Shown in pieces: positions 42,822-57,071 of a stretch of DNA of 64,000 bases. Position numbers and translations under genes: made by a program. The DNA is taken from the NCBI GenBank assembly GCA_048882045.1, contig JBHLRZ010000003.1, positions 1 through 64,000 of the forward strand, given 5' to 3'. Position 1 is the stretch's first letter. Each line of letters starts with the position of its first letter. The stretch is from Candidatus Thorarchaeota archaeon (lineage in GTDB: Archaea > Asgardarchaeota > Thorarchaeia > Thorarchaeales > Thorarchaeaceae). The notes below the pieces were generated by a model. That model did not search any database. It worked only from the letters and a program-made list of their open reading frames with translations, and was not told the origin of the DNA.

Positions 42822-44018
42822 TCAATCTTCTGGGAAGTAGTCCGATTCAAGTATCTCTGGATCAACCAATCCTGCTGAAACAGCCATTATCTCAGCCACA
42901 TCAAGAACTCTAGTCTCTAGATTAGCCATATATGTCCCTGTTGTCAGATTCATCTCACAGGCAGGGCAAATAGTTGAAATCAGCTCTGCACCACTCTCAA
43001 CAAAGTCACTCATTCTCTCAGCAGCCACACTGTCGGAATAGTCAGGGTACATGATTTTGCATCCTCCACCTCCACCACAACAGAATGCATGTTCCCTGTT
43101 TCTAGACATCTCTACGAACTCGACTCCAGGGATGGCTTCAAGCACTTTCCGTGGCGGGTCATAGATATCCTTGTAGCGACCGATCTCACACGGATCATGG
43201 TAAGAGACTTTTTTATTTACAGGAGTCTTGAGCTTCAGTTTCTTCTTCTCAACTATCTCAAGAAGGACCTCACTTGTGTGACGCACCTTGATAGGTAATG
43301 CTTCAATTTCCAAGAGATGAGGATACTCCTCGTCAAAGGCTCTATAGCAGCTAGGACAGGGGGTGATAATCTCCTTCACACCACGGTCCTGTAGTTTCTT
43401 TAGGTAGGACTTTGCGTACTCTTGCGCATTCTCCATCTTTCCTGTAACCCAATAAGGCGTCCCACAACAGGTCTGTTCATCTCCTAGAAAGTCTAGATCA
43501 TATCCTGCTGCCTGAAGGAGTCGTACAAGGATGTTGGTCTTCTCTTTGAATCTATGACTGGCCAAGCATCCCGGATAGAATAGAGTTCCAGATCCCTCAT
43601 TGAACTCAAGACCATCAGCCCATTTGGTATGATCTTTGGGAGGATCAGCAAAGATGTTTCCAGCGGAGGTCACTGTATCAGCCATTTTTTTCCCACCCTC
43701 AGGAATATTGATACCCTTGTCAACAAAGTCCTGACGCATCGCCTTGGTTATCGCAATCACATCTATCTGAGCTGCTTTCTTGCACTCTTCTCTACATCTA
43801 CCGCACATGAAACATCCAAAGATACGTTCCGCTAGGTCCTCAGAGTATTCCAACTTCCCTTCAAGAATGGCTCTTGCAATGGCCATACGACCTCTTGCTG
43901 TCGAGGATTCCCAATGCTGAGTGAAGATCTCAGGGCATCTGTCATTGTAGTCAAAACCCCTGCAGAACTCACATCGTCCACAGGCATAGATCATATCCTT
44001 GTATTGCTCAATCTTCAT
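42822..44018 (-). CDS. Fe-S oxidoreductase, GlpC/GlcF/HdrD-like (two 4Fe-4S plus two CCG domains)
   Basis: CGRCEFC, CFMCGRCREEC, YPGC, CCG, CPSC, YHDPC, CCGGGGG, CPAC. Confidence 0.92.
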   Translation of the reverse strand: MKIEQYKDMIYACGRCEFCRGFDYNDRCPEIFTQHWESSTARGRMAIARAILEGKLEYSEDLAERIFGCFMCGRCREECKKAAQIDVIAITKAMRQDFVDKGINIPEGGKKMADTVTSAGNIFADPPKDHTKWADGLEFNEGSGTLFYPGCLASHRFKEKTNILVRLLQAAGYDLDFLGDEQTCCGTPYWVTGKMENAQEYAKSYLKKLQDRGVKEIITPCPSCYRAFDEEYPHLLEIEALPIKVRHTSEVLLEIVEKKKLKLKTPVNKKVSYHDPCEIGRYKDIYDPPRKVLEAIPGVEFVEMSRNREHAFCCGGGGGCKIMYPDYSDSVAAERMSDFVESGAELISTICPACEMNLTTGTYMANLETRVLDVAEIMAVSAGLVDPEILESDYFPED

Positions 44019-45406
44019 TTCAGTTCCTCCTCTGGAATGAATATTCCACGTTGCAGTATGTTCTTGGGATCTAGTGTCTTCTTGAGAGTCTTGAGAAGTC
44101 GGTAGTAGCCTGTGTCATGTTCTGCGACAAATCTTCTGAGACCGTCACGTCCACCAATACCATAGGGAACCACTGGTCCCCTAAGTGTGATCTCGTCAAT
44201 CTCATCGGCCATCTTCACTAACTCTTTCCACTCATCCGGTTCATTGTAGTTAGTGACCATGAAAGCAAGCCAGTCTCTTGGAAGGATCTGTCCTCCAAAT
44301 CCAGCTTTAGTGTAACCCCTCTTCTCGATGACCTCTTCTTTCCAAATCTTGTAGAGGAATTTTATGTCGTCAATTCGAAGAGACCCTGCACCAAAGAAAT
44401 GCCAGACTCCTGTATTGAACAGGTCTGTAAGTCCTGTAAGGATTCTACCAAAATAGTCATCAGCAGGAGCGCGGTCTCCTATCTCGCCGCCCAACTCGCT
44501 AATCTTCTCGACTATCTTCTTCTTTCTATGGTCGACAATCTCTCTCTCATAACCAAATATGTCCATCATCAGGAAGAAAACGTCGGGAGCGGACGGGTCA
44601 CACCACAAATAGATTCCCTGCATGTATTCGTCACCAACGTGTTTATTGATAAAGTGACCAAACTCAATTACATCATCAAGTGTCTTCATCGTCGCTGTGA
44701 GTCGCTCTGAGATATCAGTCACAGGGCGAATTCTGACAGATAGCTCTGTACAGACTCCTAGGATTCCTTCTGCCCCTATGAACATTCCAGCCAGATCAGG
44801 TCCAAGACACTGTCGTTTGAATTTACCAGCACTCGGCCAAGCAGCTGATCCGGTTTCTACAATGTCCCCATTTGGAAGAACCATCTCAAGTGTTACAATG
44901 TCATCCTTGCCATGAAAACCAAACTTAGCTGTGGAGTGTGGTCCTCCACCCGCTTTCATGACTGAGCCACCAACTGTCATAGCAGGGCCTCCAGCTTCAC
45001 TACAGAGGTATGTAAGACCTTTATTTCTCAGTTCCCGGTCTAACTTGGCCCAAGTACAATTCGGTTGAACGGTAGCAACAAGGTCTCGCTCGTTAATCTC
45101 AACAATCTTGTTCATCCGACCAAGATCAAGCATGATTCCTGGTTCTTGCGGGAGGTAGGCATCCCAATGGGAAGTTCCTCCACCTCGAATATAGACAGGA
45201 ACGTTCTGCTCATTAGCAATCTTGAGAATCGCTTGTATCTCCTCTCGGGATTCCGGCAAGACAACATGAGTAGGCATCTTCTGATCTGCTGGACTAAGGT
45301 CACGGCTGTAAGGGATCATGTCGAAGTCCCTGTCAGTGACTCGACTTGGGGATACAGCCTCTTGCAGAAGAGCAGTGACCTTCTTGATATCGACCATGGT
45401 TTTCAC
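44015..45406 (-). CDS. FAD-binding oxidoreductase (GlcD/Dld, VAO family)
   Basis: P..VVLP, IRGGGTS, TVGG, LEMVLPNG, GPDLAGMFIGAEGILG, DPKNIL; overlaps the GlpC-like gene. Confidence 0.9.
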   Translation of the reverse strand: MKTMVDIKKVTALLQEAVSPSRVTDRDFDMIPYSRDLSPADQKMPTHVVLPESREEIQAILKIANEQNVPVYIRGGGTSHWDAYLPQEPGIMLDLGRMNKIVEINERDLVATVQPNCTWAKLDRELRNKGLTYLCSEAGGPAMTVGGSVMKAGGGPHSTAKFGFHGKDDIVTLEMVLPNGDIVETGSAAWPSAGKFKRQCLGPDLAGMFIGAEGILGVCTELSVRIRPVTDISERLTATMKTLDDVIEFGHFINKHVGDEYMQGIYLWCDPSAPDVFFLMMDIFGYEREIVDHRKKKIVEKISELGGEIGDRAPADDYFGRILTGLTDLFNTGVWHFFGAGSLRIDDIKFLYKIWKEEVIEKRGYTKAGFGGQILPRDWLAFMVTNYNEPDEWKELVKMADEIDEITLRGPVVPYGIGGRDGLRRFVAEHDTGYYRLLKTLKKTLDPKNILQRGIFIPEEELK

Positions 45407-45504
45407 TCCTCAGAGTACTGGAAAGGAGGAATGACCTACCGATTTATTAAAGACTGCGGTCTTTGTCCAATTTAACATCCATTAATGAGATTGGTGAAAC
45501 TCAG

Positions 45505-46632
45505 ATGAAGTCACGAGAGCGATTTCATGCTACAGTCAATCACGAAGAACCAGACAGGGTTCCGCTTGATTATTGGACAACTCCACAAGCATATGAGAAC
45601 CTCAGGGACTATCTTGGTATTACAGCACCAGAAACCCAAGAGTGGGGAATTATGTCTGAGTGGAAGACATCTGAGCAGTTGCTGCAAAGACTGGATATTG
45701 ATTTCAGAAGAGTGTATATGAAGACCTCATCGAGTTTCAAACCAGGCCCTCTTCCTGATGGATCCATCGAAACCGAGTTCAAATGTGGTGTGAAGCTAAT
45801 TGGGGGATATCATGAGGTAACGTATTATCCATGGGCTGAATTCACGGAGGTGGAGCAGGTTGAGGAATTTGACTGGATAGATCCCGATGATTCCTCAAAG
45901 ATGGATGGTGTGTTGGAATGGGCTAAGTACCTACATGAGGAAACTGACTATGCAGTGGTTGGAATGGTGGGGGGTCCATGGGGTGTGTTTGAGGTTGTTG
46001 CACATTATATGAGAGGATTTGACAAGTTTCTCATTGACCTCCTCAAGAGGCCAGACCTTGCAGAGGCAATGATGGATAAGAGTATGGAACTTGCACTGGA
46101 GTTGAATCGAGTTCTCTTAGATGAGGTCGGAGATTTTCTTGACATTGTGCAGGTGGGTGATGACTTGGGCCATCAGGATGGACTTCTGATCAGCCCGAGA
46201 ATATATCGAAAATTGATCAAACACAGACACAAGAAGCTCTACTCTGACATTCACCGGCGGGCTCCACATGTGAAAATTCTCTATCACTCATGCGGTGCAA
46301 TAGAACCAATGATTGAAGATCTGATCGAGGTTGATGTAGATATTCTTAATCCGATTCAACCTCTGGCCAAAGGGATGGATTCTATAGGTCTAAAAGAGAA
46401 ATATGGTGAGAGGCTTACGTTCCATGGGGGTATCGACCTACAAAGGGCAATGTCATCACAAGGAACTATAGAAGATGTACGTCGAGAGGTCGAAACCAGA
46501 CTCAAAGCTCTTGCTCCAGGAGGGGGATATATTCTCGCTCCTGCACACAACATTCAGCCAGAATCTACTCCTGAAAAGATACTAACTCTCTATGACTACG
46601 CAAAGGAGAAGGGGATCTATCCCATCTCCTGA
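45505..46632 (+). CDS. uroporphyrinogen decarboxylase / MtaA-CmuA family protein
   Basis: MKSRERF...EPDRVP, MRGFDKFL, GDDLG, YHSCG, NPIQP, FHGGID, GGYILAPAHNIQ; GGTGA SD. Confidence 0.85.
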   Translation: MKSRERFHATVNHEEPDRVPLDYWTTPQAYENLRDYLGITAPETQEWGIMSEWKTSEQLLQRLDIDFRRVYMKTSSSFKPGPLPDGSIETEFKCGVKLIGGYHEVTYYPWAEFTEVEQVEEFDWIDPDDSSKMDGVLEWAKYLHEETDYAVVGMVGGPWGVFEVVAHYMRGFDKFLIDLLKRPDLAEAMMDKSMELALELNRVLLDEVGDFLDIVQVGDDLGHQDGLLISPRIYRKLIKHRHKKLYSDIHRRAPHVKILYHSCGAIEPMIEDLIEVDVDILNPIQPLAKGMDSIGLKEKYGERLTFHGGIDLQRAMSSQGTIEDVRREVETRLKALAPGGGYILAPAHNIQPESTPEKILTLYDYAKEKGIYPIS

Positions 46633-47319
46633 TCAAGGAATAGGTTTCTCTTTGTGAAGGTCATAGGGATCATCACCTTCATCCAATTTCTCAGCCCACC
46701 ATTCGTCAGTCCTTACGACCTTTTCAGCATGTTTGAGTACATCTTCGATTTTATCATGAGGAATGGCTACGACTCCATCTCCATCACCAAATATGAGATC
46801 TCCTGGATGAACAGTAACTCCACCGCAGACGATGGGTTTCTGAACTGACTCCATATCCAAGCGACCACGCATAGTTCCTGGATGACGACCTCGGGCAAAC
46901 ACAGCGAAGTCCATCTTGTCTATATCATAGATGTCTCTGGATGTACCATCAACCACTGCTCCTCTGACTCCCTTTGACTTTCCAATCTTGGTCAAGATCT
47001 GACCCCAAGTAGAACAGTCAGTTGCGCCAGCTTGGTCTATAACAATGACATCGCCTTCGGTCGCGTCAGTTCCAAGGCTCATGAAGGTCTCAAGTTGTTT
47101 TTCATCGTATGGTTTCGTTGATGAGGATCGAACCATTTTTCCTGTCCTGGCAAATCCAGCTATCCTGTTGCTCTTAGTGAGAGGTTTGATCTCTCTGTCC
47201 ATGCAAACTCTGCCTAGTCCAATCTCATCTGCGGCATCTGATAATGCCGCCACATAGAGATTCAATGTTCGTGTGATTATTGCAATTCTCTCTTCTCGCA
47301 TCATCAATCTCTCTCCCAT
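46633..47319 (-). CDS. RraA / HMG-CHA aldolase family
   Basis: LSDA, GDVIVID, WGQIL, GAVVDGTSRD, VHPGDLIFGDGDGVV. Confidence 0.9.
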   Translation of the reverse strand: MGERLMMREERIAIITRTLNLYVAALSDAADEIGLGRVCMDREIKPLTKSNRIAGFARTGKMVRSSSTKPYDEKQLETFMSLGTDATEGDVIVIDQAGATDCSTWGQILTKIGKSKGVRGAVVDGTSRDIYDIDKMDFAVFARGRHPGTMRGRLDMESVQKPIVCGGVTVHPGDLIFGDGDGVVAIPHDKIEDVLKHAEKVVRTDEWWAEKLDEGDDPYDLHKEKPIP

Positions 47320-47777
47320 CTGTAGATACAGTAATCATCCCCACGCATCATGCATTTTGGAATTGTCATCCGAAATTCAGGGTCAACAGCCTGTCCTATG
47401 CCTTCGTCAATCTTAGTGACCCATTCACATATGTCAGACCCCGCACCTTTTCCCTTGAATCCTTCCAACCATGGGCAGTAGGTGACCTTTAGGTCGAACC
47501 TCTTGTCAGTCATATCACTAATCGAGAGTTCGAAACCAAAGTAGGGATGAGCACCATCGAAAAACTCAAAGATTGACCCATAGTCCCCAACTCTTAGTCC
47601 CCCTTGTTCGACAGCTGCTTTGCCAAGTTCCAAACCATGCAATCGATTGGCTTCACCTATCTCTTTGAGACCAGCCTCTCCATAGCGTCTGCGAACAGAT
47701 TCCACATAGATTGTATGCGTTTCTGCAAGTGTGGTCATACTTGCTCTTCGAACGTCATCAGCACTAGGACCGGGCAT
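47304..47777 (-). CDS. L-2-amino-thiazoline-4-carboxylate hydrolase-like (V4R-related) protein
   Basis: VTYCPW...DICEW...ID...MMRGDDYC pattern. Confidence 0.7.
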   Translation of the reverse strand: MPGPSADDVRRASMTTLAETHTIYVESVRRRYGEAGLKEIGEANRLHGLELGKAAVEQGGLRVGDYGSIFEFFDGAHPYFGFELSISDMTDKRFDLKVTYCPWLEGFKGKGAGSDICEWVTKIDEGIGQAVDPEFRMTIPKCMMRGDDYCIYRWERD

Positions 47778-47902: not shown

Positions 47903-49060
47903 TTGCTCGCAGAGAGAAACATTGATGTTCCCGCTAGCGAAATCCGAAAGATCTTCAACAAGATCATCGGAAGGACAGATGTCTTTGACATGACTGTTGG
48001 AATTCCTGATTTTGATACTCCTCAGCACATCAAAGATGCAGCAAAACAAGCCATTGATGAGGGCTATACAACCTACACACACAATGCTGGATACATAGAA
48101 ACTAGAGAGGCTATTGCTAAGAAGCTCGAGCGTGACAACGAAATCACGGCAGATCCAGAAACGGAGCTCATTCTGACAGCAGGAGGGATGGGTGCGCTAG
48201 TCCTAGCAAACCTGGTCTTGGTGAATCCCGGAGACGAAGTAATCTACCCAGATCCAGGGTTTGTAAGTCATTTTGCGCATATCAAACTGGCAGGAGGAGA
48301 ACCGGTTCCAATCCAATTGAAGAGAGAGAATGGGTTTGGAATCACTGCAGAGGACGTAGAGTCCCTAATCACTCCTAAGACCAAGATGCTAGTCATGAAC
48401 TTTCCAAATAACCCAACTGGAGGTGTAATATCCAATGGGGAACTTAGAAAGATTGCTGAGCTGTGCATTGAGAAAGATATCTATGTAATAGCTGATGAGG
48501 CATATGAGAAGTTCAGATATGGTGATGATAAACCGTTATTCATAGGATCACTATCAGGTATGAAAGAGCGAACTTTGTCTGTCTTTTCTCTTTCGAAGAC
48601 ATATGCAATGACAGGTTGGAGAATTGCGGCAGCTACAGGTTCAAGTGAACTGATTGGAGCCATGACAAAGCTTCAGGAACATGTTATTGCAATGCCAACT
48701 ACGATTGCTCAGAAAGCCGCTGAAGCAGCAGCCACAGGACCACAAGATTGCGTAGCTGATATGCTTAGGACCTTCAAGAAGCGAAGAGACCTCATCACCA
48801 AGGGACTCAATGACATTGAGGGGGTAGAGCTAGATCCCCCTGGTGGAGCTTTCTATGCATTTCCAGATGTGTCATCATATGGTATCAAATCATTCGACTT
48901 GGTCCATCAAATCCTCAAAGAAACCAATGTCGTCACTGTTCATGGTACAGCATTTGGTCATTTCGGGGAGGGATTCCTCCGGTTGTGCTACGCTGTTTCT
49001 ACTGAAAGAATCAATGAGGCACTTAGTAGACTCGATTCATACTTACCTAAGTTACTCTGA
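47903..49060 (+). CDS. PLP-dependent aminotransferase class I/II (AspC-like)
   Basis: GIPDF, YTHNAG, NFPNNPTG, ADEAY, SLSKTYAMTGWRI, GAFYAFP, FLRLCYA. Confidence 0.95.
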   Translation: MLAERNIDVPASEIRKIFNKIIGRTDVFDMTVGIPDFDTPQHIKDAAKQAIDEGYTTYTHNAGYIETREAIAKKLERDNEITADPETELILTAGGMGALVLANLVLVNPGDEVIYPDPGFVSHFAHIKLAGGEPVPIQLKRENGFGITAEDVESLITPKTKMLVMNFPNNPTGGVISNGELRKIAELCIEKDIYVIADEAYEKFRYGDDKPLFIGSLSGMKERTLSVFSLSKTYAMTGWRIAAATGSSELIGAMTKLQEHVIAMPTTIAQKAAEAAATGPQDCVADMLRTFKKRRDLITKGLNDIEGVELDPPGGAFYAFPDVSSYGIKSFDLVHQILKETNVVTVHGTAFGHFGEGFLRLCYAVSTERINEALSRLDSYLPKLL

Positions 49061-49069
49061 TTTTGCTCT

Positions 49070-51433
49070 ATGGGAAAAGTAAAGAATACAGAAGTGAATG
49101 TGTTTAGAATGACTTCCCGCAGTCAGCGAATAAAACAACGGATGCTTGATTCCGAACCTACGATATCAGCGGAAAGAGCAGTCCTATTCACAGAGTATGT
49201 TAAGCAGCACTGGTCAGAACCTACAATGACCCGTCTTGCGGGAGGATTTGCCCACGTCCTTGATAACATGACAATTCGCATCTTACCGGATGAATTGATT
49301 GTTGGCAACATGGGACCTACACCTAGGTCCTGTCAGATTTTCCCCGAGTACAGTTGGAAATGGATCGAGGAGGAGTTAGACCGATTTGAGAGTAGGAGGA
49401 CCGAGAAGTTCGTTATCAGTGAAGAGGATAAGTCTAAACTTAGGGAAGTCTTTGGTTTCTGGGAAGGAAAGAGCACCTCAGAAATTGCGTACCAACGAAT
49501 ACCAGACAGGCCTGTAAAAGCATCAAAGGCGGGTCTATTTACGATAGGAGCACCCGGAACTGGAATAGGTCATGTAATCGTAGATTACGAGAAAGTCATT
49601 ACGAGGGGTCTCAATAGCATTCTCAAACAGATAATGGCAAAAGACTCCGAATTCTACAATGCAGTTAGGGTAGAGATAGAAGCTGTAATAAGATTCTCAG
49701 AGAGATTCTCCTCGTTAGCTGCTAAAGAAGCTGAGAGGGAAGAGGAACCAAAGAGGAAAGCTGAACTTGAGGAAATCTCTCGAATCTGCGCGAAGGTTCC
49801 TGCTGAACCAGCTGAGTCATTCCATGAAGCGCTCCAGTCTTTCTGGTTCATTCACCTTCTGATTCAGACCGAATCAAATGGTCATTCGATGTCAACAGGA
49901 CGATTCGATCAGTATCTATTCCCATATTATAATGAAGACATCAAGTCTGGAAAATTGAAACGAGAGGAGGCAGTTGAACTCCTCGAACTTCTATGGGTGA
50001 AGTTTACTTCATTGATTAAATTGCGCAATGAATACTATAGCATTGCTTTTGCTGGCCACCCGATGTTTCAGAACCTCACCATTGGAGGTCAAGATGAAAA
50101 CGGAAAAGACGCTTCGAATGAACTAACGAAATTAATTCTTGAAGTAACTGGGAACATCAGAGTCACACAACCCAGTGTTTCATATAGATGGCACAAGAAA
50201 ACACCTGAAGACATCAGATTCATGATAGTCGATGTTATTTCCAAAGGTCTTGGGATGCCAGGTCTCTTCAATGACGATGCAATCATACCTATGATGCTGG
50301 AAAAGAAGAGCGAGTCCACAGATGCAATGGATTACTCAATACTTGGGTGTGTTGAACCCATAGTTGGCGGGAAATCAGACCCGCGTCAGAACATTGGATA
50401 TGTGAATCTACCCAAAATCTTGGAGATCACGTTGAACAATGGAAGAGACCCAAAAAATGGCGAACTTGTAGGAAGAGAAACTGGTGATCCAAGAGAGTTT
50501 AAGTCATTTAATGAGTTGTGGATAGCTTTCACAGAGCAGGTCGACTATACAATCGAACTTCTTACTACAGCTGACAAAATTACTGCAGGAGTCCACGTCG
50601 ATCACACTCCCACACCATTCATATCTTCTCTACTCGAAGGAAGTCTGGATTCTGGAAAATCCATGCAAGAAGGTGGTGTGAAATACAACTCAGGCGGAAT
50701 TATGGGAGTTGGAATTGCTATCGTCGCAGATTCATTAGAGGTCCTCAGAAAATATGTCTTTGAAAAGCAAGAGATCACAATGGATGAGTTAATTCAGGTT
50801 ATGGCAGATGACTGGAACGGACACGAGGAACTCAGAGTCAAGTTTGAAAACGATCCTGCAAAGTATGGAAATGACATAGAACGTGTTGACTACCTCGCAA
50901 GAGATACAGGGAAGACATTCTGCGAATCAATTCAGAGTCGGATGACAACACGTGGTGGTCCATACCATGGAGCGTTGTTCTCAGTATCTATGTATATCCC
51001 TCAAGGAGAGGTGCTTGGAGCAACACCGGATGGTCGTAAAGCTGGTTACATGCTCTCCGACGGTGTTTCACCAACACAGAATAGGGATGTTAATGGACCC
51101 ACTGCTGCAATGAAGTCTGTTGCACGACTCGACCATTCCAAATGCTACAATGGAACGTTGTACAACATGAAGTTTTCACCTGACTTCTTTAGCAATGAGT
51201 CCCATCGGCGTAAATTCATCGGAATGATTGATGCATACTTTGAGATGGGAGGATTACATCTCCAATTCAATGTGGTTTCAAAGGAGACCCTTGAGGATGC
51301 AAAGGTCAATCCATTGCAACACAGAGACCTCATTGTAAGAGTTGCTGGATATAGTGCATACTTCATCGAATTGGATCCCTTCGTCCAGGATGAAGTTATT
51401 GCTAGGACAGAGTTTTCGAGTTCACATGTTTAA
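49070..51433 (+). CDS. glycyl radical enzyme, diol-dehydratase/PFL2-type (eliminase class)
   Basis: ELIVG, GIGHVIVDY, ESNGHS, GRFDQY, FQNLTIGG, GCVEP (single Cys), ATPDGRKAG, RVAGYS glycyl-radical loop. Confidence 0.95.
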   Translation: MGKVKNTEVNVFRMTSRSQRIKQRMLDSEPTISAERAVLFTEYVKQHWSEPTMTRLAGGFAHVLDNMTIRILPDELIVGNMGPTPRSCQIFPEYSWKWIEEELDRFESRRTEKFVISEEDKSKLREVFGFWEGKSTSEIAYQRIPDRPVKASKAGLFTIGAPGTGIGHVIVDYEKVITRGLNSILKQIMAKDSEFYNAVRVEIEAVIRFSERFSSLAAKEAEREEEPKRKAELEEISRICAKVPAEPAESFHEALQSFWFIHLLIQTESNGHSMSTGRFDQYLFPYYNEDIKSGKLKREEAVELLELLWVKFTSLIKLRNEYYSIAFAGHPMFQNLTIGGQDENGKDASNELTKLILEVTGNIRVTQPSVSYRWHKKTPEDIRFMIVDVISKGLGMPGLFNDDAIIPMMLEKKSESTDAMDYSILGCVEPIVGGKSDPRQNIGYVNLPKILEITLNNGRDPKNGELVGRETGDPREFKSFNELWIAFTEQVDYTIELLTTADKITAGVHVDHTPTPFISSLLEGSLDSGKSMQEGGVKYNSGGIMGVGIAIVADSLEVLRKYVFEKQEITMDELIQVMADDWNGHEELRVKFENDPAKYGNDIERVDYLARDTGKTFCESIQSRMTTRGGPYHGALFSVSMYIPQGEVLGATPDGRKAGYMLSDGVSPTQNRDVNGPTAAMKSVARLDHSKCYNGTLYNMKFSPDFFSNESHRRKFIGMIDAYFEMGGLHLQFNVVSKETLEDAKVNPLQHRDLIVRVAGYSAYFIELDPFVQDEVIARTEFSSSHV

Positions 51434-51515
51434 GCTCGATCATTGAGTCAACGGCAGATTTAACATTTCCAGAGGACGTTCTATTGATTGTTGAACAGAG
51501 AGTGAGTTGTGACAG

Positions 51516-52511
51516 ATGGGTTACGACGTGGTCACCTTTGGAGAAGTGATGCTTCGACTCTCTCCACCTGACTTTATGCGCTTCGAACAGACACACAGCT
51601 TCAACGCTCATGCTGGAGGAGCTGAGATGAATGTAGCCGTTGCATGTGCTCGATTGGAACTCAGCTCGGCTTATGTCACTAAACTTGGAGACAATTCAAT
51701 TGGTCACTTCATTAGAAACAAAGCAAGAGAACATGGTGTTGATACATCGCACATCTTGTGGGACCCAGATAGTAGATGCGGGGTCTATTTTGTAGAGTTT
51801 GGAGCGGCTCCTAGAACCAACCGTGTCATCTATGATCGCAAGGAGTCTGCAATAAGCAAGATTAAACCAGGAGAGGTTGATTGGAAGAAAATCCTGAAGG
51901 GCACCAAACTCTTCCATACAAGCGGAATCACACCAGCGCTCAGCAAAAGCTGTGCAGAGGTTACCAGTGAGGCTCTTACTATTGCCCAAGAACAAGGAGC
52001 CAAAGTGTCGTATGATGTCAACTATCGAGGGAAACTTTGGACTCCCAAACAGGCACAGAAGTTCACTGAACCTGCGTCTGAAAGTATTGACATTCTGATT
52101 ACTACTGAAGAAGACACCAAGGTAGTCTATGGGATAGAAGGAAAAGACTACGAAGATGTAGCCGCCAAGCTCATCGACAAGTTCGGATTCGAGGTAGTAG
52201 TCATAACAATAAGAGAAACTCCTACTGTACTGCAAAACAAATGGTCTGTCTTTGCCTATTCCGATGGGAAAGTATACAGAAGTCCAACCTATGACGTAGA
52301 AGTTATCGACCGTCTTGGCGGAGGTGACTCATGTAGTGCTGGTTTCATCTATGGTTATCTAGAGCTAAAAGACTTGCAGAAAGCAGTTGATTTTGGTTCA
52401 GCATTCTCAGCATTGAAACACTCAGTTCCCGGAGACCTGGCATTTGTATACAAGTCAGAAGTCGAGAAACTAATCAAAGGTCGCGAACGAGGCCTTCGCA
52501 TTGATAGGTGA
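51516..52511 (+). CDS. kdgK: 2-keto-3-deoxygluconate kinase (PfkB family)
   Basis: FGEVMLRLSP, GGAEMNVA, VIYDRKESA, HTSGITPAL, YDVNYRGKLW, DRLGGGDS, ALKHSVPGD. Confidence 0.88.
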   Translation: MGYDVVTFGEVMLRLSPPDFMRFEQTHSFNAHAGGAEMNVAVACARLELSSAYVTKLGDNSIGHFIRNKAREHGVDTSHILWDPDSRCGVYFVEFGAAPRTNRVIYDRKESAISKIKPGEVDWKKILKGTKLFHTSGITPALSKSCAEVTSEALTIAQEQGAKVSYDVNYRGKLWTPKQAQKFTEPASESIDILITTEEDTKVVYGIEGKDYEDVAAKLIDKFGFEVVVITIRETPTVLQNKWSVFAYSDGKVYRSPTYDVEVIDRLGGGDSCSAGFIYGYLELKDLQKAVDFGSAFSALKHSVPGDLAFVYKSEVEKLIKGRERGLRIDR

Positions 52512-53167
52512 TTGAAATGTGGACAAAAGATAGAGCAATGAAGCTGATCCATGACACCGGTCTGATCCCAATTATCCGTGTTGAATCTGCGGAAATTGCA
52601 TTCAAAGTAGCGGAGGCATTTCTTGATGGGGGAATCAATATCATTGAGGTGACAATGAGTGTTCCAGGAGCAGTTGATGTTGTCAAGAAACTTGTTGAAC
52701 AGTTCGGTGACAAAGTGTTGATTGGTACTGGGACAGTTGTGAACGCAAAGATGATTGACAAGGTCGTCAAAGCAGGAAGCGAGTTCATTGTGAGCCCGAA
52801 TTACCACCTTTCCATGGTCAAAGTTGCTCATAGTTTGAAGAAACCTATCATTCCTGGAGCTCTAACTCCTTCTGAGATCTATAATGCGTACGCGAATGGA
52901 GCAGACGCAGTGAAGGTCTTTCCTGTTGGAAATGTGGGTGGTGCAGCCTACTTGAAGGCGATCAGAGGACCATTACCTCAAATCCCACTTGTTCCGACAG
53001 GTGGAGTGAACCTAGAAACCGCAGGACCGATGCTTGACGCTGGAGCCTATGCTCTTGGAGTTGGTAGTGCCATTACCGACAAGAAGGCAATCAAAGACGG
53101 GCGTTTTGAGGTCATAACAGAGAATGTCAGGAAGTTTCTTGAAATTGTGAAGACACACCGAAGCTAA
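52508..53167 (+). CDS. eda: KDPG/KHG aldolase
   Basis: IPIIR, GGINIIEVT, IGTGTV, FIVSP, PGALTPSEI, VKVFP (Schiff-base Lys), VPTGGV; 4-nt overlap with kdgK. Confidence 0.92.
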   Translation: MIEMWTKDRAMKLIHDTGLIPIIRVESAEIAFKVAEAFLDGGINIIEVTMSVPGAVDVVKKLVEQFGDKVLIGTGTVVNAKMIDKVVKAGSEFIVSPNYHLSMVKVAHSLKKPIIPGALTPSEIYNAYANGADAVKVFPVGNVGGAAYLKAIRGPLPQIPLVPTGGVNLETAGPMLDAGAYALGVGSAITDKKAIKDGRFEVITENVRKFLEIVKTHRS

Positions 53168-54009
53168 GTGAGCTTCTGCAAAATGGCAATCATGTGAGTT
53201 CCTCCATCAATTGCACTTAGCTCTCGACAAAAATCGAGCTCCCACTTGAGGAACATCTTCCATTTCATGGTATCTTTTGTGAGCTCGATTAGGTATTCCT
53301 CATTGAACAGACCATTTGACAGATAGTTTGCAGCAGATACGTCCAAAATATCCACGGGATGTTTGGAAAGGACCGCACTATATTCACTCCATCGATACAT
53401 ATGGCATTGATGAGTTCCTTCCCCAGCCAAATCGCCAACTACATCGCCAGTACGGGTAAGCTCGTCAAACTTCTCTAATCCGATGTTTTCAAACTCCTCG
53501 AAGACATTCCTAATGAGGTGATGATATGTGCCAAGACAAGACATTACACTTGTGAAGATGATTCCTCGAGGTTTTGTAACTCGGATAACTTCATCTAGAG
53601 CATCATCGACGAATTCTAGGACATAACTAAGAGGGCCACCATATAAGACAGTTGCATCATACTCGTTGTCCGGAATTCCCTCTAGATTTAGAATATCCAA
53701 CTTCCTTCTCCATTCGACGCTATCATCGAAACCAGCATCTTTGACCTTTTCCTTGTTCAAACGGAGTTGTTCGTTGGAAATATCTACTACAGATATACGA
53801 GCACCAAGTTTGGCCAACTCGATTGTGAAGCGTCCCGGTCCAGAACCAATCTCAAGTACTCGGTCACCCTTCTTGAGGTGCTTTCGAAGGAAGTGTTGAT
53901 GAATGTGAAACTGAACCTTTCCCTTTGGAGTCCTGTCAAGTCGTTCCCATTCATCATCAGTGAATTTGTCAAAATACCCCTCAATCATTTTTGGATCATA
54001 CATTGGCAA
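53164..54009 (-). CDS. class I SAM-dependent methyltransferase
   Basis: EWERL, VLEIGSGPGRF, VVDIS, YGGPLSY, RVTKPRG. Confidence 0.9.
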   Translation of the reverse strand: MPMYDPKMIEGYFDKFTDDEWERLDRTPKGKVQFHIHQHFLRKHLKKGDRVLEIGSGPGRFTIELAKLGARISVVDISNEQLRLNKEKVKDAGFDDSVEWRRKLDILNLEGIPDNEYDATVLYGGPLSYVLEFVDDALDEVIRVTKPRGIIFTSVMSCLGTYHHLIRNVFEEFENIGLEKFDELTRTGDVVGDLAGEGTHQCHMYRWSEYSAVLSKHPVDILDVSAANYLSNGLFNEEYLIELTKDTMKWKMFLKWELDFCRELSAIDGGTHMIAILQKLT

Positions 54010-54498: not shown

Positions 54499-55905
54499 AT
54501 GGATAAGATTGTGATCAAGAAGTTAGAGGAGATAGTAGGTGAAGAATATGTATCAACAAGGCCAGACGTATTGTTGACATATTCACAGACCGCTTCTATG
54601 GCTGTGGAGCCAGTGAAACCTGCAGCTGTTGTTCGTCCTGCAAATACAGCTGAAGTTTCGCAGATATTAGCACTTGCGAACGAGCACAAAATACCCGTGA
54701 CTCCCAGATCAGGAGGATCTAGTCTACAAGGGGAGGCAATTCCTAAACCTGGAGGAATTGTCGTTGAAGTGCTTCGGTTAGAATCGATAGAGCTCTATGA
54801 AGACCTTCGATCCGTGACAGTTGGAGCAGGAGTCACATATGGTGCATTGGACAAGTTCCTTGATAGACACGGTCTCTTTGTTCCAGTCTATCCAGAATCT
54901 TCACTAATCTGCACAGTAGCTGGAAACGTTGCAGTTAATGGTGCTGGACCGGGTTCGAGTCTGTATGGTAGTACTGGTGAGATGGTTCTCGGATTAGAAG
55001 TAGTGCTACCGGACGGCACAATAATTCAGACAGGGTCTGAAGCTAATCCCAATGCTCCTGGACCATTCATCCGCTATGCTTTTGGGCCAGACCTTACTGG
55101 TATTTTCATAGGGTCGTGCGGAAGTTTCGGGATAATCACGAAAGTATCTGTGAAGACATACAAGAGAGTGAAATACTTCGATTACAACATGTACGGTTTT
55201 GATGAGGTAGCACAGGCTGAACAGTTTATGGTCGAGATAAAGCAAAACGAGATCAATGGTCTCTTCACATCACTCTACTCTGGAGAAGTCCTTGACCTTT
55301 TCATGGACATGCTCGCCGAAGAGCTTGGATTTCCACCTTTTGAACACGCCCCTCGTACAATCTCAATGACAATAGGAGGTATACGAGAGGACATTGTGGA
55401 AAGTGATGCCAAACTCGCCCGAGAAATCTGTGAGAGCTTGGGAGGTAGAGTATTGAATGTTCCAGAAATGCCACAACAGGAGTGGGAGGGACGCCTCTGG
55501 AATTTCGCACGTGCTTCATATGCTCACGGATGGCATTGGCGGACACTCTATCATCATCAGACACCAACAAACTCCCACAGGTCTGTAGAAATAATAGAGG
55601 ACATGATGGACAAATACAAGTTCTTGGGTCATACTGCGGGCTTCCACACAGGGCACAGCTCCATGAATCTGTACCCTCATATGTATTTTGATCCTCAGGA
55701 TAAAGAGGAGGAACTGAAAGTTGTAAAGGCTCACGGAGAGATTGCAAAGAATCTCTTTAGGTCTGGAGCAGTACCTTTCAAACTCGCAGAGTATTGGAAG
55801 GATGCTATCGAAGGCATGGACAGCTACATGACCTTCTTGAGGTTGATAAAGAACACGATTGACCCCAACAACATTATGAACCCAAGAGTCTTAGGAGGAG
55901 TCTAA
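54499..55905 (+). CDS. FAD-binding oxidoreductase (GlcD / alkyl-DHAP-synthase-like, VAO family)
   Basis: PAAVVRP, PRSGGSS, TVAGN, LGLEVVLPDG, GPDLTGIFIGSCGSFGIITK, DPNNIMNP. Confidence 0.9.
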   Translation: MDKIVIKKLEEIVGEEYVSTRPDVLLTYSQTASMAVEPVKPAAVVRPANTAEVSQILALANEHKIPVTPRSGGSSLQGEAIPKPGGIVVEVLRLESIELYEDLRSVTVGAGVTYGALDKFLDRHGLFVPVYPESSLICTVAGNVAVNGAGPGSSLYGSTGEMVLGLEVVLPDGTIIQTGSEANPNAPGPFIRYAFGPDLTGIFIGSCGSFGIITKVSVKTYKRVKYFDYNMYGFDEVAQAEQFMVEIKQNEINGLFTSLYSGEVLDLFMDMLAEELGFPPFEHAPRTISMTIGGIREDIVESDAKLAREICESLGGRVLNVPEMPQQEWEGRLWNFARASYAHGWHWRTLYHHQTPTNSHRSVEIIEDMMDKYKFLGHTAGFHTGHSSMNLYPHMYFDPQDKEEELKVVKAHGEIAKNLFRSGAVPFKLAEYWKDAIEGMDSYMTFLRLIKNTIDPNNIMNPRVLGGV

Positions 55906-57071
55906 TGATGTCAGAGATAGATCTCGAAGACCTCGTTGAGAACCTGATGCAATGCCGCAGATGCGGACTCTGTAGAAATGCTGTCTACGATAATAGAGGC
56001 TTTGATGGAGTATGTCCCGTATGGAAAAACACAGCAGGTTTTGAAACCAGTTTCATGCGTGGTCGAATACAGGTTGCCTTAGCCCTTCTCGATGGAACAC
56101 TTGAGAAGACTCCAGAGAATGCAGAGGCTCTCTTCACATGCACACTATGTGGTAATTGTACTGAGATCTGTGCATCAGAGTTCGACCCATCGGAATGCTT
56201 AGAAAAGATGAGAGCGGTCCTTAACGACATACCAAATGATGTTCGTGATTCGATCGCGAAGAAGATCATGCAGTTTGACAATCCCTATGAAGAAAATATC
56301 CAGATCAAACGTGAATGGATCAAAGAGGTTGGTTTCGAAGTTCCAACTTCGGGAGATGTACTCTACTATACTGGTTGCACCGCAGGAATTCGACTACCCA
56401 ACATTGCTAAATCAACCGTTATGGTTCTCAAGGCCGCTGACATCGATTTTGCGGTGCTCGAGGATGAGCCATGCTGCGGCAGTGTGATGCTCAGAACAGG
56501 AAGAGCAGATGATGCCAGAAAGAATGCTGAGAAGCTTTCAGAGGTCATCAAGAATTCAGGCGCAAAGAAGATCATTGTAACCTGTGCGGGTTGTCTGAAG
56601 ACTCTCCGAGATGACTACCCGGAACTCGATGTCGAACTTCCTGAGGTTCTACATGTGACTGAGGTGCTCCAAGAGATTGTCAAGGATAGGAAACTCAAAT
56701 TGAAATCATTGGGTAAAGATGTCAAGGTGACATATCATGACCCGTGTCACCTCTCAAGAGCTGCTGGAGTCTATGATGAACCTAGAGAGATCATCAGAGC
56801 TATTCCTGGTGTAGAGTTAGTTGAAATGGAAACAAACCGAGAAGCAGCAATGTGCTGTGGAGCAGGAGGAGGACTCCGTTCCTACGACCCTGCACTTTCA
56901 AAGAAGATAGCAGCAGAACGTGTGAGAAATGCAGTTGAAACTGGAGCGGAAATCATTGTTACTGCCTGTCCATTCTGCGAAAACAACCTCCAAGCTGGTA
57001 TTGAGGTTGAGGGCAGTAAAACAAAGGTTGTAGATGTTGTAGACTTGCTGTTCGAGAGTCTTGAAAAATAA
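55905..57071 (+). CDS. Fe-S oxidoreductase, GlpC/GlcF/HdrD-like
   Basis: CRRCGLC, CTLCGNCTEIC, YTGC, CCGS, CAGC, YHDPCHL, CCGAGGG, ACPFC. Confidence 0.92.
   Translation: MMSEIDLEDLVENLMQCRRCGLCRNAVYDNRGFDGVCPVWKNTAGFETSFMRGRIQVALALLDGTLEKTPENAEALFTCTLCGNCTEICASEFDPSECLEKMRAVLNDIPNDVRDSIAKKIMQFDNPYEENIQIKREWIKEVGFEVPTSGDVLYYTGCTAGIRLPNIAKSTVMVLKAADIDFAVLEDEPCCGSVMLRTGRADDARKNAEKLSEVIKNSGAKKIIVTCAGCLKTLRDDYPELDVELPEVLHVTEVLQEIVKDRKLKLKSLGKDVKVTYHDPCHLSRAAGVYDEPREIIRAIPGVELVEMETNREAAMCCGAGGGLRSYDPALSKKIAAERVRNAVETGAEIIVTACPFCENNLQAGIEVEGSKTKVVDVVDLLFESLEK

What the first reader, a model, noticed from the sequence alone, without database searches (positions are those of the whole stretch)
47903..53167. 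Glycyl radical dehydratase in one operon with KDG kinase and KDPG aldolase: candidate radical Entner-Doudoroff entry
Seen: four co-oriented genes, aminotransferase - GRE - KdgK - Eda, with gaps of 9 nt, ~80 nt and a 4-nt overlap. The GRE has one active Cys (GCVEP), so it is not pyruvate formate-lyase. It keeps motifs typical of B12-independent glycerol/propanediol dehydratases (GxGHVxxDY, ESNGHS, FQNL). The segment after the Cys loop differs: KSDPRQNIGYVN, versus roughly KTEGWHDSAFFN recalled for glycerol dehydratase, so an Arg is introduced and the Asp is lost. Known: GRE eliminases abstract H from a carbinol carbon and expel the vicinal OH or amine, giving C=O plus CH2; KdgK and Eda consume 2-keto-3-deoxy sugar acids. 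No IlvD/Edd- or enolase-type aldonate dehydratase gene is recognisable in the window. Inference: the GRE converts an aldonate (or an amino- or sulfo-sugar acid, possibly prepared by the aminotransferase) to a 2-keto-3-deoxy acid, with the Arg binding the anion. I know of no characterised GRE with this role.
Basis: partly seen in the sequence, partly recalled or inferred. Interest (0 to 1): 0.82.

Follow-up and report, generated by a model that had tools for sequence, protein, structure and literature searches.

The report
Thorarchaeal radical enzyme beside KDG genes
An Asgard (Thorarchaeia) archaeon carries an uncharacterised, lineage-restricted glycyl radical enzyme of the dehydratase type. 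It is kept, lost and even broken together with a sugar-acid kinase and aldolase that have no ordinary supplier of substrate, so it probably makes that substrate by radical chemistry, but this is untested.

Summary
The window holds aminotransferase, glycyl radical enzyme (GRE), KDG kinase and KDPG/KHG aldolase, co-oriented, and every quoted motif is present.

**The enzyme**
- It keeps the eliminase catalytic set: Cys-x-Glu, the His of GD His164, His-Ser and the Gly loop.
- It forms its own clade, found in one GTDB family of Thorarchaeia only. It is at most 45% identical to any other GRE and matches no curated equivalog.

**Link to KdgK-Eda**
- Across 86 family genomes the GRE and KdgK go together: 57 have both, 24 have neither, and 5 discordant cases lie at contig ends or in incomplete genomes.
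- In one genus the GRE sits at another locus. There it is still kept with KdgK, lost with it, or broken with it.

**Missing supplier of KDG**
- IlvD/Edd occurs in 6 of 86 genomes and the enolase superfamily in 28 of 86.
- UxuA, UxaA and KduI were found in 0 of 40 genomes.

**Cautions**
- About ten neighbouring genes are inherited as one block.
- kdgK-eda has its own conserved upstream element.
- No activase lies nearby.
- The substrate is unknown.

The best reading (about 0.45) is a radical C-O lyase or dehydratase that makes a 2-keto-3-deoxy acid for KdgK-Eda. This scan has already noted the same cassette in several other Thorarchaeia genomes, with similar verdicts.

The parts
49070..51433 (+). 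Glycyl radical enzyme, 787 aa from the first ATG. The probable true start is Met14 at 49109, giving 774 aa. Catalytic residues are Cys427, Glu429, His168, His272/Ser273 and Gly760. The clade-invariant pocket residues are Ala161, Pro162, Phe333, Arg439, Asn441, Phe637 and Val639.
   Evidence: Pfam PF02901 (678 bits) plus PF01228, and TIGR01774 above its cut-off, with no equivalog reached. Alignment to glycerol dehydratase 1r8w. Pocket columns in 31 orthologues. Tree.
47903..49060 (+). Class I/II PLP aminotransferase with a TTG start. It is closest to the broad-specificity aromatic/aspartate aminotransferase of Pyrococcus horikoshii.
   Evidence: The orthologue is adjacent in all cassette loci. 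It is also found alone in G317, G326, G329 and G330.
51451..51470 (+). Conserved 20-nt element ACGRCAGATTTAACATTTCC, about 45-65 nt upstream of the kdgK start. It is probably a promoter (BRE/TATA-like) or an operator of kdgK-eda.
   Evidence: It is conserved across genera within an otherwise variable spacer and is unique in the window. It is present in the AT-kdgK spacer of G312, where the GRE lies elsewhere. It is degraded at the G315 pseudogene locus.
51516..52511 (+). PfkB-family 2-keto-3-deoxygluconate kinase (KdgK).
   Evidence: Pfam PfkB. The best solved relative is T. maritima KDG kinase 2afb, at 276 bits. The KDG-contacting residues of T. thermophilus KDGK (list recalled from memory) are all conserved in the alignment. 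It is 74-95% identical across the family.
52508..53167 (+). Eda-type class I KDPG/KHG aldolase with a GTG start that overlaps kdgK by 4 nt. It is the only copy in the genome.
   Evidence: PF01081 and TIGR01182 above cut-off. Single genomic hit. The closest natural structure is T. maritima KDPG aldolase.
47304..47777 (-). ATC_hydrolase-like protein, divergent from the aminotransferase. It belongs to the co-inherited block and its role is unknown.
   Evidence: synteny.
46633..47319 (-). RraA-like protein of the HMG/CHA-aldolase / oxaloacetate decarboxylase family. It belongs to the co-inherited block and its role is unknown.
45463..46632 (+). URO-D/MtaA-like protein. Its presence in the family tracks the GRE and KdgK. 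The real start is probably near residue 13.
   Evidence: It is absent from five GRE-less genomes. Family pattern.
42822..45406 (-). GlcD-like FAD dehydrogenase (44015-45406) plus CCG/4Fe-4S subunit (42822-44018). This is a D-2-hydroxyacid dehydrogenase-type pair on the left side of the block.
   Evidence: synteny.
53164..54009 (-). SAM-dependent methyltransferase on the opposite strand. It is present in only some orthologous loci.

Best explanation
The gene encodes a functional glycyl radical enzyme of the 1,2-eliminase / C-O lyase type. It represents a new clade restricted to one family of Thorarchaeia.

**Proposed mechanism (inferred)**
1. The genome's single GRE activase, encoded on another contig, installs the radical on Gly760.
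2. The thiyl radical on Cys427 abstracts the carbinol hydrogen of an anionic hydroxy-acid substrate larger than glycerol. This is most likely a hexonate-type sugar acid or a cyclic (anhydro) derivative.
3. Glu429 deprotonates that hydroxyl, and His168 protonates the oxygen that leaves the neighbouring carbon.
4. Arg439 and Asn441 hold the anionic group.
5. The product is a 2-keto-3-deoxy acid of KDG or KDGal type.
6. KdgK phosphorylates it and Eda splits it into pyruvate and glyceraldehyde 3-phosphate.
7. The aminotransferase most plausibly handles pyruvate or another 2-oxo acid, rather than preparing the substrate.

**Shown**: the gene identities, the catalytic residues, the separateness of the clade, the co-variation with KdgK-Eda, and the absence of the known KDG-forming families.

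**Inferred**: the substrate class, the product, the role of Arg439, and activation in trans.
For: **Catalytic apparatus**
- Alignment to 1r8w keeps Cys433, Glu435, His164, His281/Ser282 and Gly763. The 2026 review assigns these roles.

**Pocket**
- The specificity positions are remodelled and invariant in 31 orthologues: Asn156->Ala, the Tyr-rich beta1 loop replaced by A-P-G-T, Tyr339->Phe, Trp445->Arg, Asp447->Asn, Tyr640->Phe and Ser642->Val.
- The Arg aligns with an Arg in E. coli YbiW, a GRE that works on a hexitol phosphate.

**Separate clade**
- A single 50%-identity cluster is followed by a drop to 44%.
- The clade is monophyletic with support 1.0. Its sisters are uncharacterised bacterial GREs, and none of the ten nearest representatives reaches an equivalog cut-off.

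**Coupling to KdgK**
- 57 genomes have both genes, 24 have neither, and the 5 discordant cases lie at contig ends or in incomplete genomes.
- In genus g2 the GRE lies at another locus. G312 keeps both genes intact. G315 has 3 stops in the GRE and 2 in kdgK, while the neighbouring genes stay open. G313 and G314 lack both.

**Pathway hole**
- Eda is single-copy.
- IlvD/Edd occurs in 6 of 86 genomes and the enolase superfamily in 28 of 86. The one enolase-type gene of this genome occurs in 9 of 86, including KdgK-less genomes. UxuA, UxaA and KduI occur in 0 of 40.

**Kinase identity**: the kinase is a KDG-kinase type with its substrate residues kept.

**Precedent**: YbiW and PflD abstract H at C2 of a sugar phosphate and cleave a C-O bond, and the keto-deoxy product goes to an aldolase. 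In E. coli, ybiW lies next to fsaA.
Against: - No biochemical datum exists for any archaeal PFL-like GRE.
- About ten genes, from CCG/GlcD through URO-D-like, RraA-like, the aminotransferase and the GRE to Eda, are inherited as one block within a larger conserved neighbourhood. Most of the co-variation could be hitch-hiking.
- kdgK-eda carries its own conserved upstream element, and the GRE can be removed from between the aminotransferase and kdgK, or separated from kdgK by a histidine-kinase gene.
- Two Tyr->Phe changes and one Ser->Val change make the distal pocket less polar. That is not what one expects for a polyol chain and resembles propanediol dehydratase at two of these positions.
- No activase lies within 9 kb in any of 36 loci.
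- KDG could come from an unrecognised reductase or from uptake.
- The roles of residues other than Cys, Glu and His164 are recalled from memory. No coordinates were available to check them.
Confidence: 0.45

Rival explanations
1. The GRE is a diol-dehydratase-like enzyme for a small or unrelated substrate, such as a short diol, glycerate, 3,4-dihydroxybutyrate, a glycerol phosphate or a sulfonated diol. It has no metabolic link to KdgK-Eda and merely sits in a conserved, block-inherited neighbourhood.
For: - The closest solved relatives are glycerol and propanediol dehydratase, at 675 and 621 bits.
- Phe333 and Val639 match the hydrophobic positions of propanediol dehydratase.
- The whole block of about ten genes co-varies, including a URO-D-like gene.
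- kdgK has its own upstream element.
- The GRE-kdgK junction is broken in two genera.
Against: - The Trp-His-Asp loop shared by GD and PD is replaced, and the Tyr-rich beta1 loop is lost.
- No aldehyde dehydrogenase, alcohol dehydrogenase, phosphotransacylase or microcompartment shell gene lies nearby. This contrasts with the 45%-identical relative in L087.
- Where the GRE and kdgK are unlinked, they are still kept, broken or lost together.
- KdgK-Eda otherwise lacks a supplier.
Confidence: 0.3
2. The GRE acts on an amino-acid-derived substrate in concert with the adjacent aminotransferase, for example a hydroxylated amino or 2-oxo acid. The chemistry would resemble HypD or HplG. The 4-hydroxy-2-oxoglutarate aldolase activity of Eda, rather than its KDPG activity, would be the relevant one.
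For: - The aminotransferase is immediately upstream in all cassette loci.
- Eda-family enzymes are bifunctional KHG/KDPG aldolases.
- GlcD/CCG 2-hydroxyacid dehydrogenase pairs flank the cluster.
- GREs that act on amino acids exist.
Against: - The aminotransferase is a generic aromatic/aspartate type. It persists alone, in other contexts, in four genomes that lack the GRE and KdgK.
- In genus g2 it stays with kdgK-eda, not with the GRE.
- The HypD equivalog scores 590 bits against a cut-off of 1100.
- This reading gives the well-conserved KDG-type kinase no role.
Confidence: 0.1
3. The GRE is an alkyl- or benzylsuccinate synthase for anaerobic hydrocarbon activation. Published genome surveys proposed this for Hermod- and Thorarchaeota GREs, and one orthologue is annotated this way in GenBank.
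For: - Zhang et al. 2021 (PMC8163825) made the assignment on a single catalytic Cys and 29-33% identity to AssA/BssA.
- Orthologue P0040 is named 'benzylsuccinate synthase alpha subunit'.
Against: - The enzyme carries the Cys-x-Glu motif and the His of GD His164, which mark the eliminases and isomerases.
- It scores 675 bits against glycerol dehydratase but about 290 bits against TutD and MasD.
- No small-subunit genes lie beside it, because its neighbours are the aminotransferase and kdgK.
- A single Cys is common to all non-PFL GREs.
Confidence: 0.02
4. The gene is a decaying or inactive relic, because no activase is adjacent.
For: - No activase lies within 9 kb in 36 loci.
- The genome has one activase for four GREs.
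- A pseudogenised copy exists in G315.
Against: - The frame is intact in nearly all of 59 genomes, at 64-88% identity.
- All catalytic and pocket residues are invariant.
- An activase of the correct family is present in the genome.
- The one decayed copy shows what real decay looks like.
Confidence: 0.03

Closest known systems
B12-independent glycerol dehydratase (Clostridium butyricum DhaB1, PDB 1r8w/1r9d) and GRE 1,2-propanediol dehydratase (PDB 5i2a/5i2g)
   Same: - The alignment covers the full length, at 675 and 621 bits.
- The catalytic residues are the same: Cys, Glu of Cys-x-Glu, His164, His281/Ser282 and the Gly loop.
- The expected radical 1,2-elimination chemistry is the same.
- Two pocket positions match propanediol dehydratase (Phe and Val).
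   Different: - Identity is only about 41-45%, and the enzyme does not fall in their clade.
- Trp445-His446-Asp447 becomes Arg-x-Asn.
- The Tyr-rich beta1 loop is replaced by a short A-P-G-T loop.
- Tyr640 becomes Phe.
- The locus has no activase, aldehyde-processing or microcompartment genes.
- The host is an archaeon.
YbiW and PflD of E. coli (1,5-anhydroglucitol-6-P and 1,5-anhydromannitol-6-P C-O lyases, 'anhydroglycolysis'; PDB 8id7, 8id0)
   Same: - These GREs carry Cys-x-Glu and abstract H from a secondary carbinol of a hexose-sized anionic substrate.
- They cleave the neighbouring C-O bond, and the keto-deoxy product goes to an aldolase.
- The gene lies next to an aldolase gene.
- YbiW has an Arg at the position of Arg439.
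   Different: - They form separate clades.
- The PflD equivalog scores 572 bits against a cut-off of 1109.
- Their substrates are phosphorylated by a PTS before the GRE step, whereas here the kinase is of KDG type and would act after the GRE.
- Their aldolase is of the transaldolase family, not Eda.
- Their activase is adjacent.
Semi-phosphorylative Entner-Doudoroff route of archaea (gluconate dehydratase of the enolase superfamily, KDG kinase, KDPG aldolase)
   Same: The same two downstream steps are present. The kinase has KDG-kinase features and the aldolase is of Eda type.
   Different: - The dehydratase step has no recognisable enolase-superfamily or IlvD/Edd enzyme in most cassette-bearing genomes.
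- A GRE sits in its place in the gene order.
- The kinase and aldolase are closest to the Thermotoga pair, not to the archaeal DHDPS-type KD(P)G aldolase.
Uncharacterised bacterial GREs P0123 (Synergistaceae), P0122, P0138 (Emergencia) and P0183
   Same: - They are the nearest relatives in the tree, with support 0.87 and 0.98.
- They share an Asp-x-Arg motif after the Cys loop.
   Different: - Identity is 39-44%.
- P0123-type genes come as tandem GRE pairs with two activases and an NCS1 permease.
- P0123 lacks the His168 and Ser273 equivalents.
- None of them has a known function.

Membership tests
Glycyl radical enzyme superfamily (PFL-like) | PFL-like barrel domain plus a C-terminal glycine-radical domain with the RVxG motif | tested here: met
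   PF02901 scores 678 bits and PF01228 scores 114 bits. The motif RVAGYS contains Gly760.
Glycyl radical enzyme superfamily (PFL-like) | A cognate radical-SAM activating enzyme is available | tested here: inconclusive
   One TIGR02494 activase is present in the genome, on contig C16 next to another GRE. None lies within 9 kb of this GRE in 36 loci. Activation in trans is assumed, not shown.
GRE 1,2-eliminases / C-O lyases | Cys-x-Glu motif on the Cys loop | tested here: met
   The loop reads GCVEP, with Cys427 and Glu429, and is invariant in orthologues. The review defines the motif.
GRE 1,2-eliminases / C-O lyases | A general acid for the leaving group (His164 of glycerol dehydratase) and the His-Ser pair | tested here: met
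   His168 and His272/Ser273 align with His164 and His281/Ser282.
B12-independent glycerol dehydratase | Residues that contact the distal end of glycerol: Asp447, Tyr339, Tyr640, Asn156 (list recalled from memory) | tested here: not met
   These positions are Asn441, Phe333, Phe637 and Ala161, and all are invariant in the clade.
B12-independent glycerol dehydratase | Falls in the GD/PD clade and sits in a locus with an activase and aldehyde-processing genes | tested here: not met
   It forms a separate clade. Its neighbours are an aminotransferase and kdgK. Compare the microcompartment locus L087.
GRE 1,2-propanediol dehydratase | Hydrophobic pocket positions (Phe and Val) together with the conserved Trp-His-Asp loop | tested here: not met
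   The Phe333 and Val639 equivalents are present, but the loop reads Arg-Gln-Asn.
Pyruvate formate-lyase | Two adjacent catalytic cysteines | tested here: not met
   The enzyme has a single Cys, in G-C-V-E-P. TIGR01255 scores 162 bits against a cut-off of 994.
X-succinate synthases (Bss/Ass/Mas) | Closest similarity to BssA/AssA, and small subunit genes alongside | tested here: not met
   It scores about 290 bits against TutD and MasD, versus 675 bits against glycerol dehydratase. The adjacent genes are the aminotransferase and kdgK. The Cys-x-Glu motif is present.
HpfG, HpsG, HypD, CutC, PflD (NCBIfam equivalogs) | Score above the curated equivalog cut-off | tested here: not met
   Scores are 603, 539, 590, 568 and 572 bits against cut-offs of 1000-1109.
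2-keto-3-deoxygluconate kinase | PfkB fold with the KDG-binding residues of T. thermophilus KDGK: Gly34, Tyr89, Tyr103, Arg105, Ile134, Arg167, Asp251 (list recalled from memory) | tested here: met
   All seven align with identical residues. The best solved hit is T. maritima KDGK. The NCBIfam KDG-kinase equivalogs are not reached: 306 bits against a cut-off of 440.
Eda (KDPG/KHG aldolase) | Score above the TIGR01182 cut-off | tested here: met
   It scores 188 bits against a cut-off of 156.

The most novel reading that the evidence does not exclude
This is the first glycyl radical enzyme that works on a sugar acid. It would make KDG or KDGal either by radical alpha,beta-dehydration of an aldonate or by YbiW-like ring opening of an anhydro-sugar acid such as 3,6-anhydrogalactonate from red-algal polysaccharide. 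That would give Thorarchaeia an oxygen-sensitive 'radical Entner-Doudoroff entry' that replaces the enolase- or IlvD-type dehydratase. It would also be the first functional assignment for any archaeal PFL-like GRE.
Probability: 0.35. Interest if true: 0.8.

Novelty: new variant of a known kind. Interest (0 to 1): 0.62.

Why it matters
A 2026 review states that no archaeal PFL-like glycyl radical enzyme has an established function, and that whole clades lack validation.

- This clade is well defined and lineage-restricted, and its genomic partners narrow the search to a testable set of substrates.
- If it makes KDG-type acids, the catalogue of GRE reactions would gain sugar acids.
- A third mechanistic solution for the Entner-Doudoroff dehydration step would join the Fe-S IlvD/Edd and enolase-superfamily enzymes.
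- It would show how Asgard archaea in anoxic sediments feed sugar acids into central metabolism.
- It also corrects published readings of these genes as pyruvate formate-lyase or as alkyl/benzylsuccinate synthase. That affects claims that Thorarchaeota degrade hydrocarbons.

Tried and rejected
The contexts of the database homologues P0114, P0060 and P0054, and of P0122 and P0138, could not be fetched that way.
No expression or co-transcription data were obtained, and read laying was not used.

**Searches that gave no usable lead**
- The metagenome scan with the sister protein P0123 gave its context: tandem GREs, two activases, an NCS1 permease, and serA/serC-like genes that are probably housekeeping. 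This gave no clue to the substrate.
- The 45%-identical hits turned out to be microcompartment diol dehydratases.
- No loci for P0122, P0138 or P0183 were among the fetched contigs.
- The paper on YbiW/PflD (10.1021/jacs.4c07718) is not held. No held paper lists the distal pocket residues of glycerol dehydratase, so those roles rest on memory.

**Steps not run**
- Structure prediction was not run. The tools return no coordinates, so neither pocket geometry nor docking could be examined.

**Readings considered and rejected**
- PFL: the enzyme has a single Cys.
- HypD, CutC, HpfG, HpsG or PflD membership: all scores are below the cut-offs.
- The enolase-superfamily gene on contig C1 as the general supplier of KDG: it occurs in only 9 of 86 genomes, including KdgK-less ones.

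**Lead only partly followed**
- An earlier agent linked the cassette to corrinoid methyl transfer. The URO-D-like gene does co-vary with the block. I saw no corrinoid-binding protein among the flanking genes that I annotated (41.5-59.3 kb of the window).

Full report
**What is there.** The window is contig C3 of an Asgard archaeon. The nearest GRE homologues are named Thorarchaeota. The genome is 3.6 Mb and 93% complete. Four co-oriented ORFs lie at 47903-49060, 49070-51433, 51516-52511 and 52508-53167. They encode:
- a class I/II aminotransferase;
- a PFL-like plus glycine-radical protein;
- a PfkB kinase whose best family matches are KDG or KDGal kinases;
- an Eda-type KDPG/KHG aldolase, above the TIGR01182 cut-off.

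One correction concerns the start of the GRE. The database representative has 774 aa and the orthologues align from residue 10-14, so the GRE probably starts at Met14 (49109). The gap to the aminotransferase is then about 48 nt rather than 9 nt.

**What kind of GRE.** Only the generic TIGR01774 model is passed. The equivalogs for HpfG, HpsG, HypD, CutC, PflD and PFL all fall far below their cut-offs. The closest solved structures are glycerol dehydratase (675 bits), propanediol dehydratase (621 bits) and an unnamed 'glycyl radical protein', 9rco (609 bits). TutD and MasD score about 290 bits.

The alignment to glycerol dehydratase keeps the following residues:

| Glycerol dehydratase | This enzyme |
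|---|---|
| Cys433 | Cys427 |
| Glu435 | Glu429 |
| His164 | His168 |
| His281/Ser282 | His272/Ser273 |
| Gly763 | Gly760 |

A 2026 review gives the roles of the first three. The thiyl radical on Cys abstracts the hydrogen, the Glu of the Cys-x-Glu motif binds and deprotonates the carbinol OH, and His164 protonates the leaving OH. The same motif is kept in the 'isomerase' GREs YbiW, PflD and HplG.

The specificity positions differ, and the differences are invariant in 31 orthologues:

| Glycerol dehydratase | This enzyme |
|---|---|
| Asn156 | Ala161 |
| Tyr-rich loop after beta1 (N-Y-Y-Y-N) | shorter A-P-G-T loop |
| Tyr339 | Phe333 |
| Trp445 | Arg439 |
| Asp447 | Asn441 |
| Tyr640 | Phe637 |
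| Ser642 | Val639 |

Position 440 varies (Gln, Pro or Ala). That the distal residues contact the substrate in glycerol dehydratase is my recollection of the 2004 and 2016 structure papers. I could not verify it in the held literature.

Two comparisons bear on substrate size. The loop after beta1 is part of the conserved GRE substrate channel. In an alignment with E. coli YbiW, which acts on a hexitol 6-phosphate, YbiW has an Arg at the column of Arg439.

**A separate, lineage-restricted clade.** In a library clustered at 50% identity, the protein has one cluster of its own at 70% identity. The next hit is at 44%. Among 400 genomes of the phylum, orthologues of at least 64% identity occur only in the window's own GTDB family: 59 of 86 genomes, in 11 of 16 genera. 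All other Asgard GREs are at most 41% identical.

In a maximum-likelihood tree with 142 representatives the clade is monophyletic, with support 1.0 and a stem of 0.49. Its sister is P0123 from Synergistaceae (support 0.87), followed by P0122, P0138 (Emergencia) and P0183 (support 0.97-0.98). It lies apart from the propanediol-dehydratase-like, YbiW and PflD clades. None of the ten nearest representatives reaches an equivalog cut-off. The 45%-identical metagenomic relatives sit in bacterial microcompartment loci with an activase and an aldehyde dehydrogenase, which is the classical diol-dehydratase context. The Thorarchaeial enzyme has none of this.

**Is it tied to KdgK-Eda?**

*Synteny.* The order aminotransferase-GRE-kdgK-eda holds in all first-set loci that reach far enough, and in 18 of 20 further loci from ten other genera. 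But the conserved neighbourhood is much wider: APC permease, Mrr-like, CCG, GlcD, URO-D-like, RraA-like, ATC-hydrolase-like, aminotransferase, GRE, KdgK, Eda, sometimes a methyltransferase, SCP2, GlcD, CCG, ssb and ino1. Order alone therefore says little.

*Presence and absence.* Comparing searches gives these counts:

| Pattern | Genomes |
|---|---|
| GRE and KdgK both present | 57 |
| Neither | 24 |
| One only | 5 |

Four of the five discordant cases have the gene at the end of a short contig. The fifth (G316) is only 66% complete. The genomes with neither gene include assemblies that are 93-98% complete.

GRE-less genomes keep SCP2-GlcD-CCG-ssb-ino1 but have unrelated DNA to the left of it. 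They also lack the URO-D-like gene. The unit of gain and loss is therefore a block of about ten genes, and linkage explains much of the correlation.

*The informative exception.* In genus g2 the aminotransferase, kdgK and eda are contiguous, and the GRE lies on another contig beside a thermosome gene.
- G312 has both the GRE and kdgK intact.
- G315 (97% complete) has three in-frame stops in the GRE and two in kdgK. The aminotransferase, eda and the surrounding genes are open.
- G313 and G314 lack both genes.

Unlinked genes that share one fate are the best evidence for a functional tie. The sample is small and the genomes are related.

*The pathway hole.* Eda is single-copy. The known KDG-forming families are distributed as follows.

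| Family | This genome | Family-wide |
|---|---|---|
| IlvD/Edd | none | 6 of 86 |
| UxuA | none | 0 of 40 genomes at least 90% complete |
| UxaA/GarD-type | none | 0 of 40 |
| KduI | none | 0 of 40 |
| Enolase superfamily | one gene | 28 of 86 |

The single enolase-superfamily gene of this genome has unknown specificity. It occurs in only 9 of 86 family genomes, and three of those lack KdgK. Many near-complete genomes with the GRE, KdgK and Eda therefore have no recognisable way to make KDG.

*The kinase.* It is closest to T. maritima KDG kinase (276 bits). It keeps all residues that I recall as KDG ligands in the T. thermophilus enzyme.

**Points against a simple operon.**
- The 82-nt GRE-kdgK spacer holds a 20-nt element, ACGRCAGATTTAACATTTCC. 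It is conserved across genera while its surroundings vary, and it is unique in the window.
- The element also sits in front of kdgK in G312, where the upstream gene is the aminotransferase. It is degraded at the G315 pseudogene locus.
- I read it as the promoter (TATA/BRE-like) or an operator of kdgK-eda. Aminotransferase-GRE and kdgK-eda may therefore be separate transcripts.
- In genus g15 a 1147-aa PAS histidine kinase gene lies between the GRE and kdgK.
- Orthologues of the aminotransferase occur alone, in unrelated contexts, in G317, G326, G329 and G330. Its nearest structure is a broad aromatic/aspartate aminotransferase. I therefore doubt that it prepares the GRE substrate. Handling pyruvate or another 2-oxo acid is simpler.
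- No activase lies within 9 kb in 36 loci. The genome has four GREs and one activase, which sits next to another GRE on contig C16.

**Most likely mechanism.** Calling this a radical eliminase or C-O lyase is well founded on the catalytic residues. That it serves KdgK-Eda is supported by the shared fate in g2 and by the pathway hole.

The chemistry needed is H abstraction at the C2 carbinol of a hydroxy acid, followed by loss of the C3 oxygen function. The product is a 2-keto-3-deoxy acid. This is the same sequence already shown for YbiW and PflD on sugar phosphates, whose product goes to an aldolase and whose gene lies beside an aldolase gene in E. coli.

It could also be a ring ether, as in YbiW. 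A 3,6-anhydrogalactonate from red-algal polysaccharide would be one example and would give KDGal. The rather apolar distal pocket (two Tyr->Phe, one Ser->Val) fits a polyol chain poorly. This keeps the small-diol or other-substrate rival alive.

I put the KdgK-Eda-feeding reading at about 0.45. A diol-type enzyme unrelated to KdgK-Eda is about 0.3, an amino-acid-linked role about 0.1, and the published alkyl/benzylsuccinate synthase reading about 0.02. That reading rests on a single Cys and about 30% identity.

**Novelty and standing.** The 2026 review says that all PFL-like GREs with characterised functions are bacterial. The enzyme class is known. The clade, its host lineage and its pathway partners are new, so I call it a new variant of a known kind. 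Its function is unproven.

Searches of this scan's notes show that the same cassette was flagged in several other Thorarchaeia genomes. Other follow-up agents reached similar verdicts. Those notes are not independent evidence. I ran the co-variation, pseudogene and pathway-hole tests myself.

**Limits.** No expression data were obtained. No contig look-ups by protein were possible. No coordinates were available for pocket analysis or docking. Genomes of one family are not independent samples, and completeness varies from 52% to 100%.

Noticed in passing
window 51451-51470: A 20-nt element, ACGRCAGATTTAACATTTCC, is conserved across Thorarchaeial genera upstream of kdgK. It is a candidate archaeal promoter or regulator binding site and is unique in the window.
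   Followed up: partly
L072:8891-11275 and L162:9046-10038 (genome G315): In one 97%-complete relative the GRE has 3 in-frame stops and kdgK has 2. The two genes lie on different contigs, and the neighbouring genes are intact. The kdgK upstream element is also degraded.
   Followed up: yes
L060:11572-15015 (genus g15; also L059): A 1147-aa histidine kinase with several PAS domains is inserted between the GRE and kdgK. It could be a sensor for the pathway.
   Followed up: no
window 42822-45406 and 54499-57071: Two paralogous pairs of GlcD-like FAD dehydrogenase plus CCG/4Fe-4S subunit flank the cassette. The right-hand pair, with an SCP2 gene, is kept in genomes that lack the cassette. Some relatives carry a tandem duplicate of the right-hand GlcD.
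   Followed up: partly
G000 contigs C2:174748, C39:23839, C16:24436; activase at C16:23135-23998: The genome has four GREs but only one GRE-type activase. The C2 paralogue (40% identical) represents the GRE type that is widespread across Asgard genomes.
   Followed up: partly
L093:7221-13759 (also L082-L084): The sister clade in Synergistaceae-type bacteria occurs as two tandem GRE paralogues, each with its own radical-SAM activase. An NCS1 permease and a CMD-cupin protein lie beside them. This system is uncharacterised.
   Followed up: partly
window 45463-46632: The URO-D/MtaA-like gene tracks the presence of the cassette across the family. Its listed TTG start is probably about 12 codons too far upstream, since relatives show stops there.
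   Followed up: partly
L164:9774-10964, L165:9835-11028: Orthologues of the aminotransferase (64-69% identical) sit in entirely different neighbourhoods in four genomes that lack the GRE and KdgK.
   Followed up: partly
G000:C1:193039-194274 (L080): An enolase-superfamily protein lies next to an alpha/beta hydrolase of macrolide-esterase type. It falls far below every acid-sugar dehydratase cut-off and is patchily distributed, in 9 of 86 genomes.
   Followed up: partly
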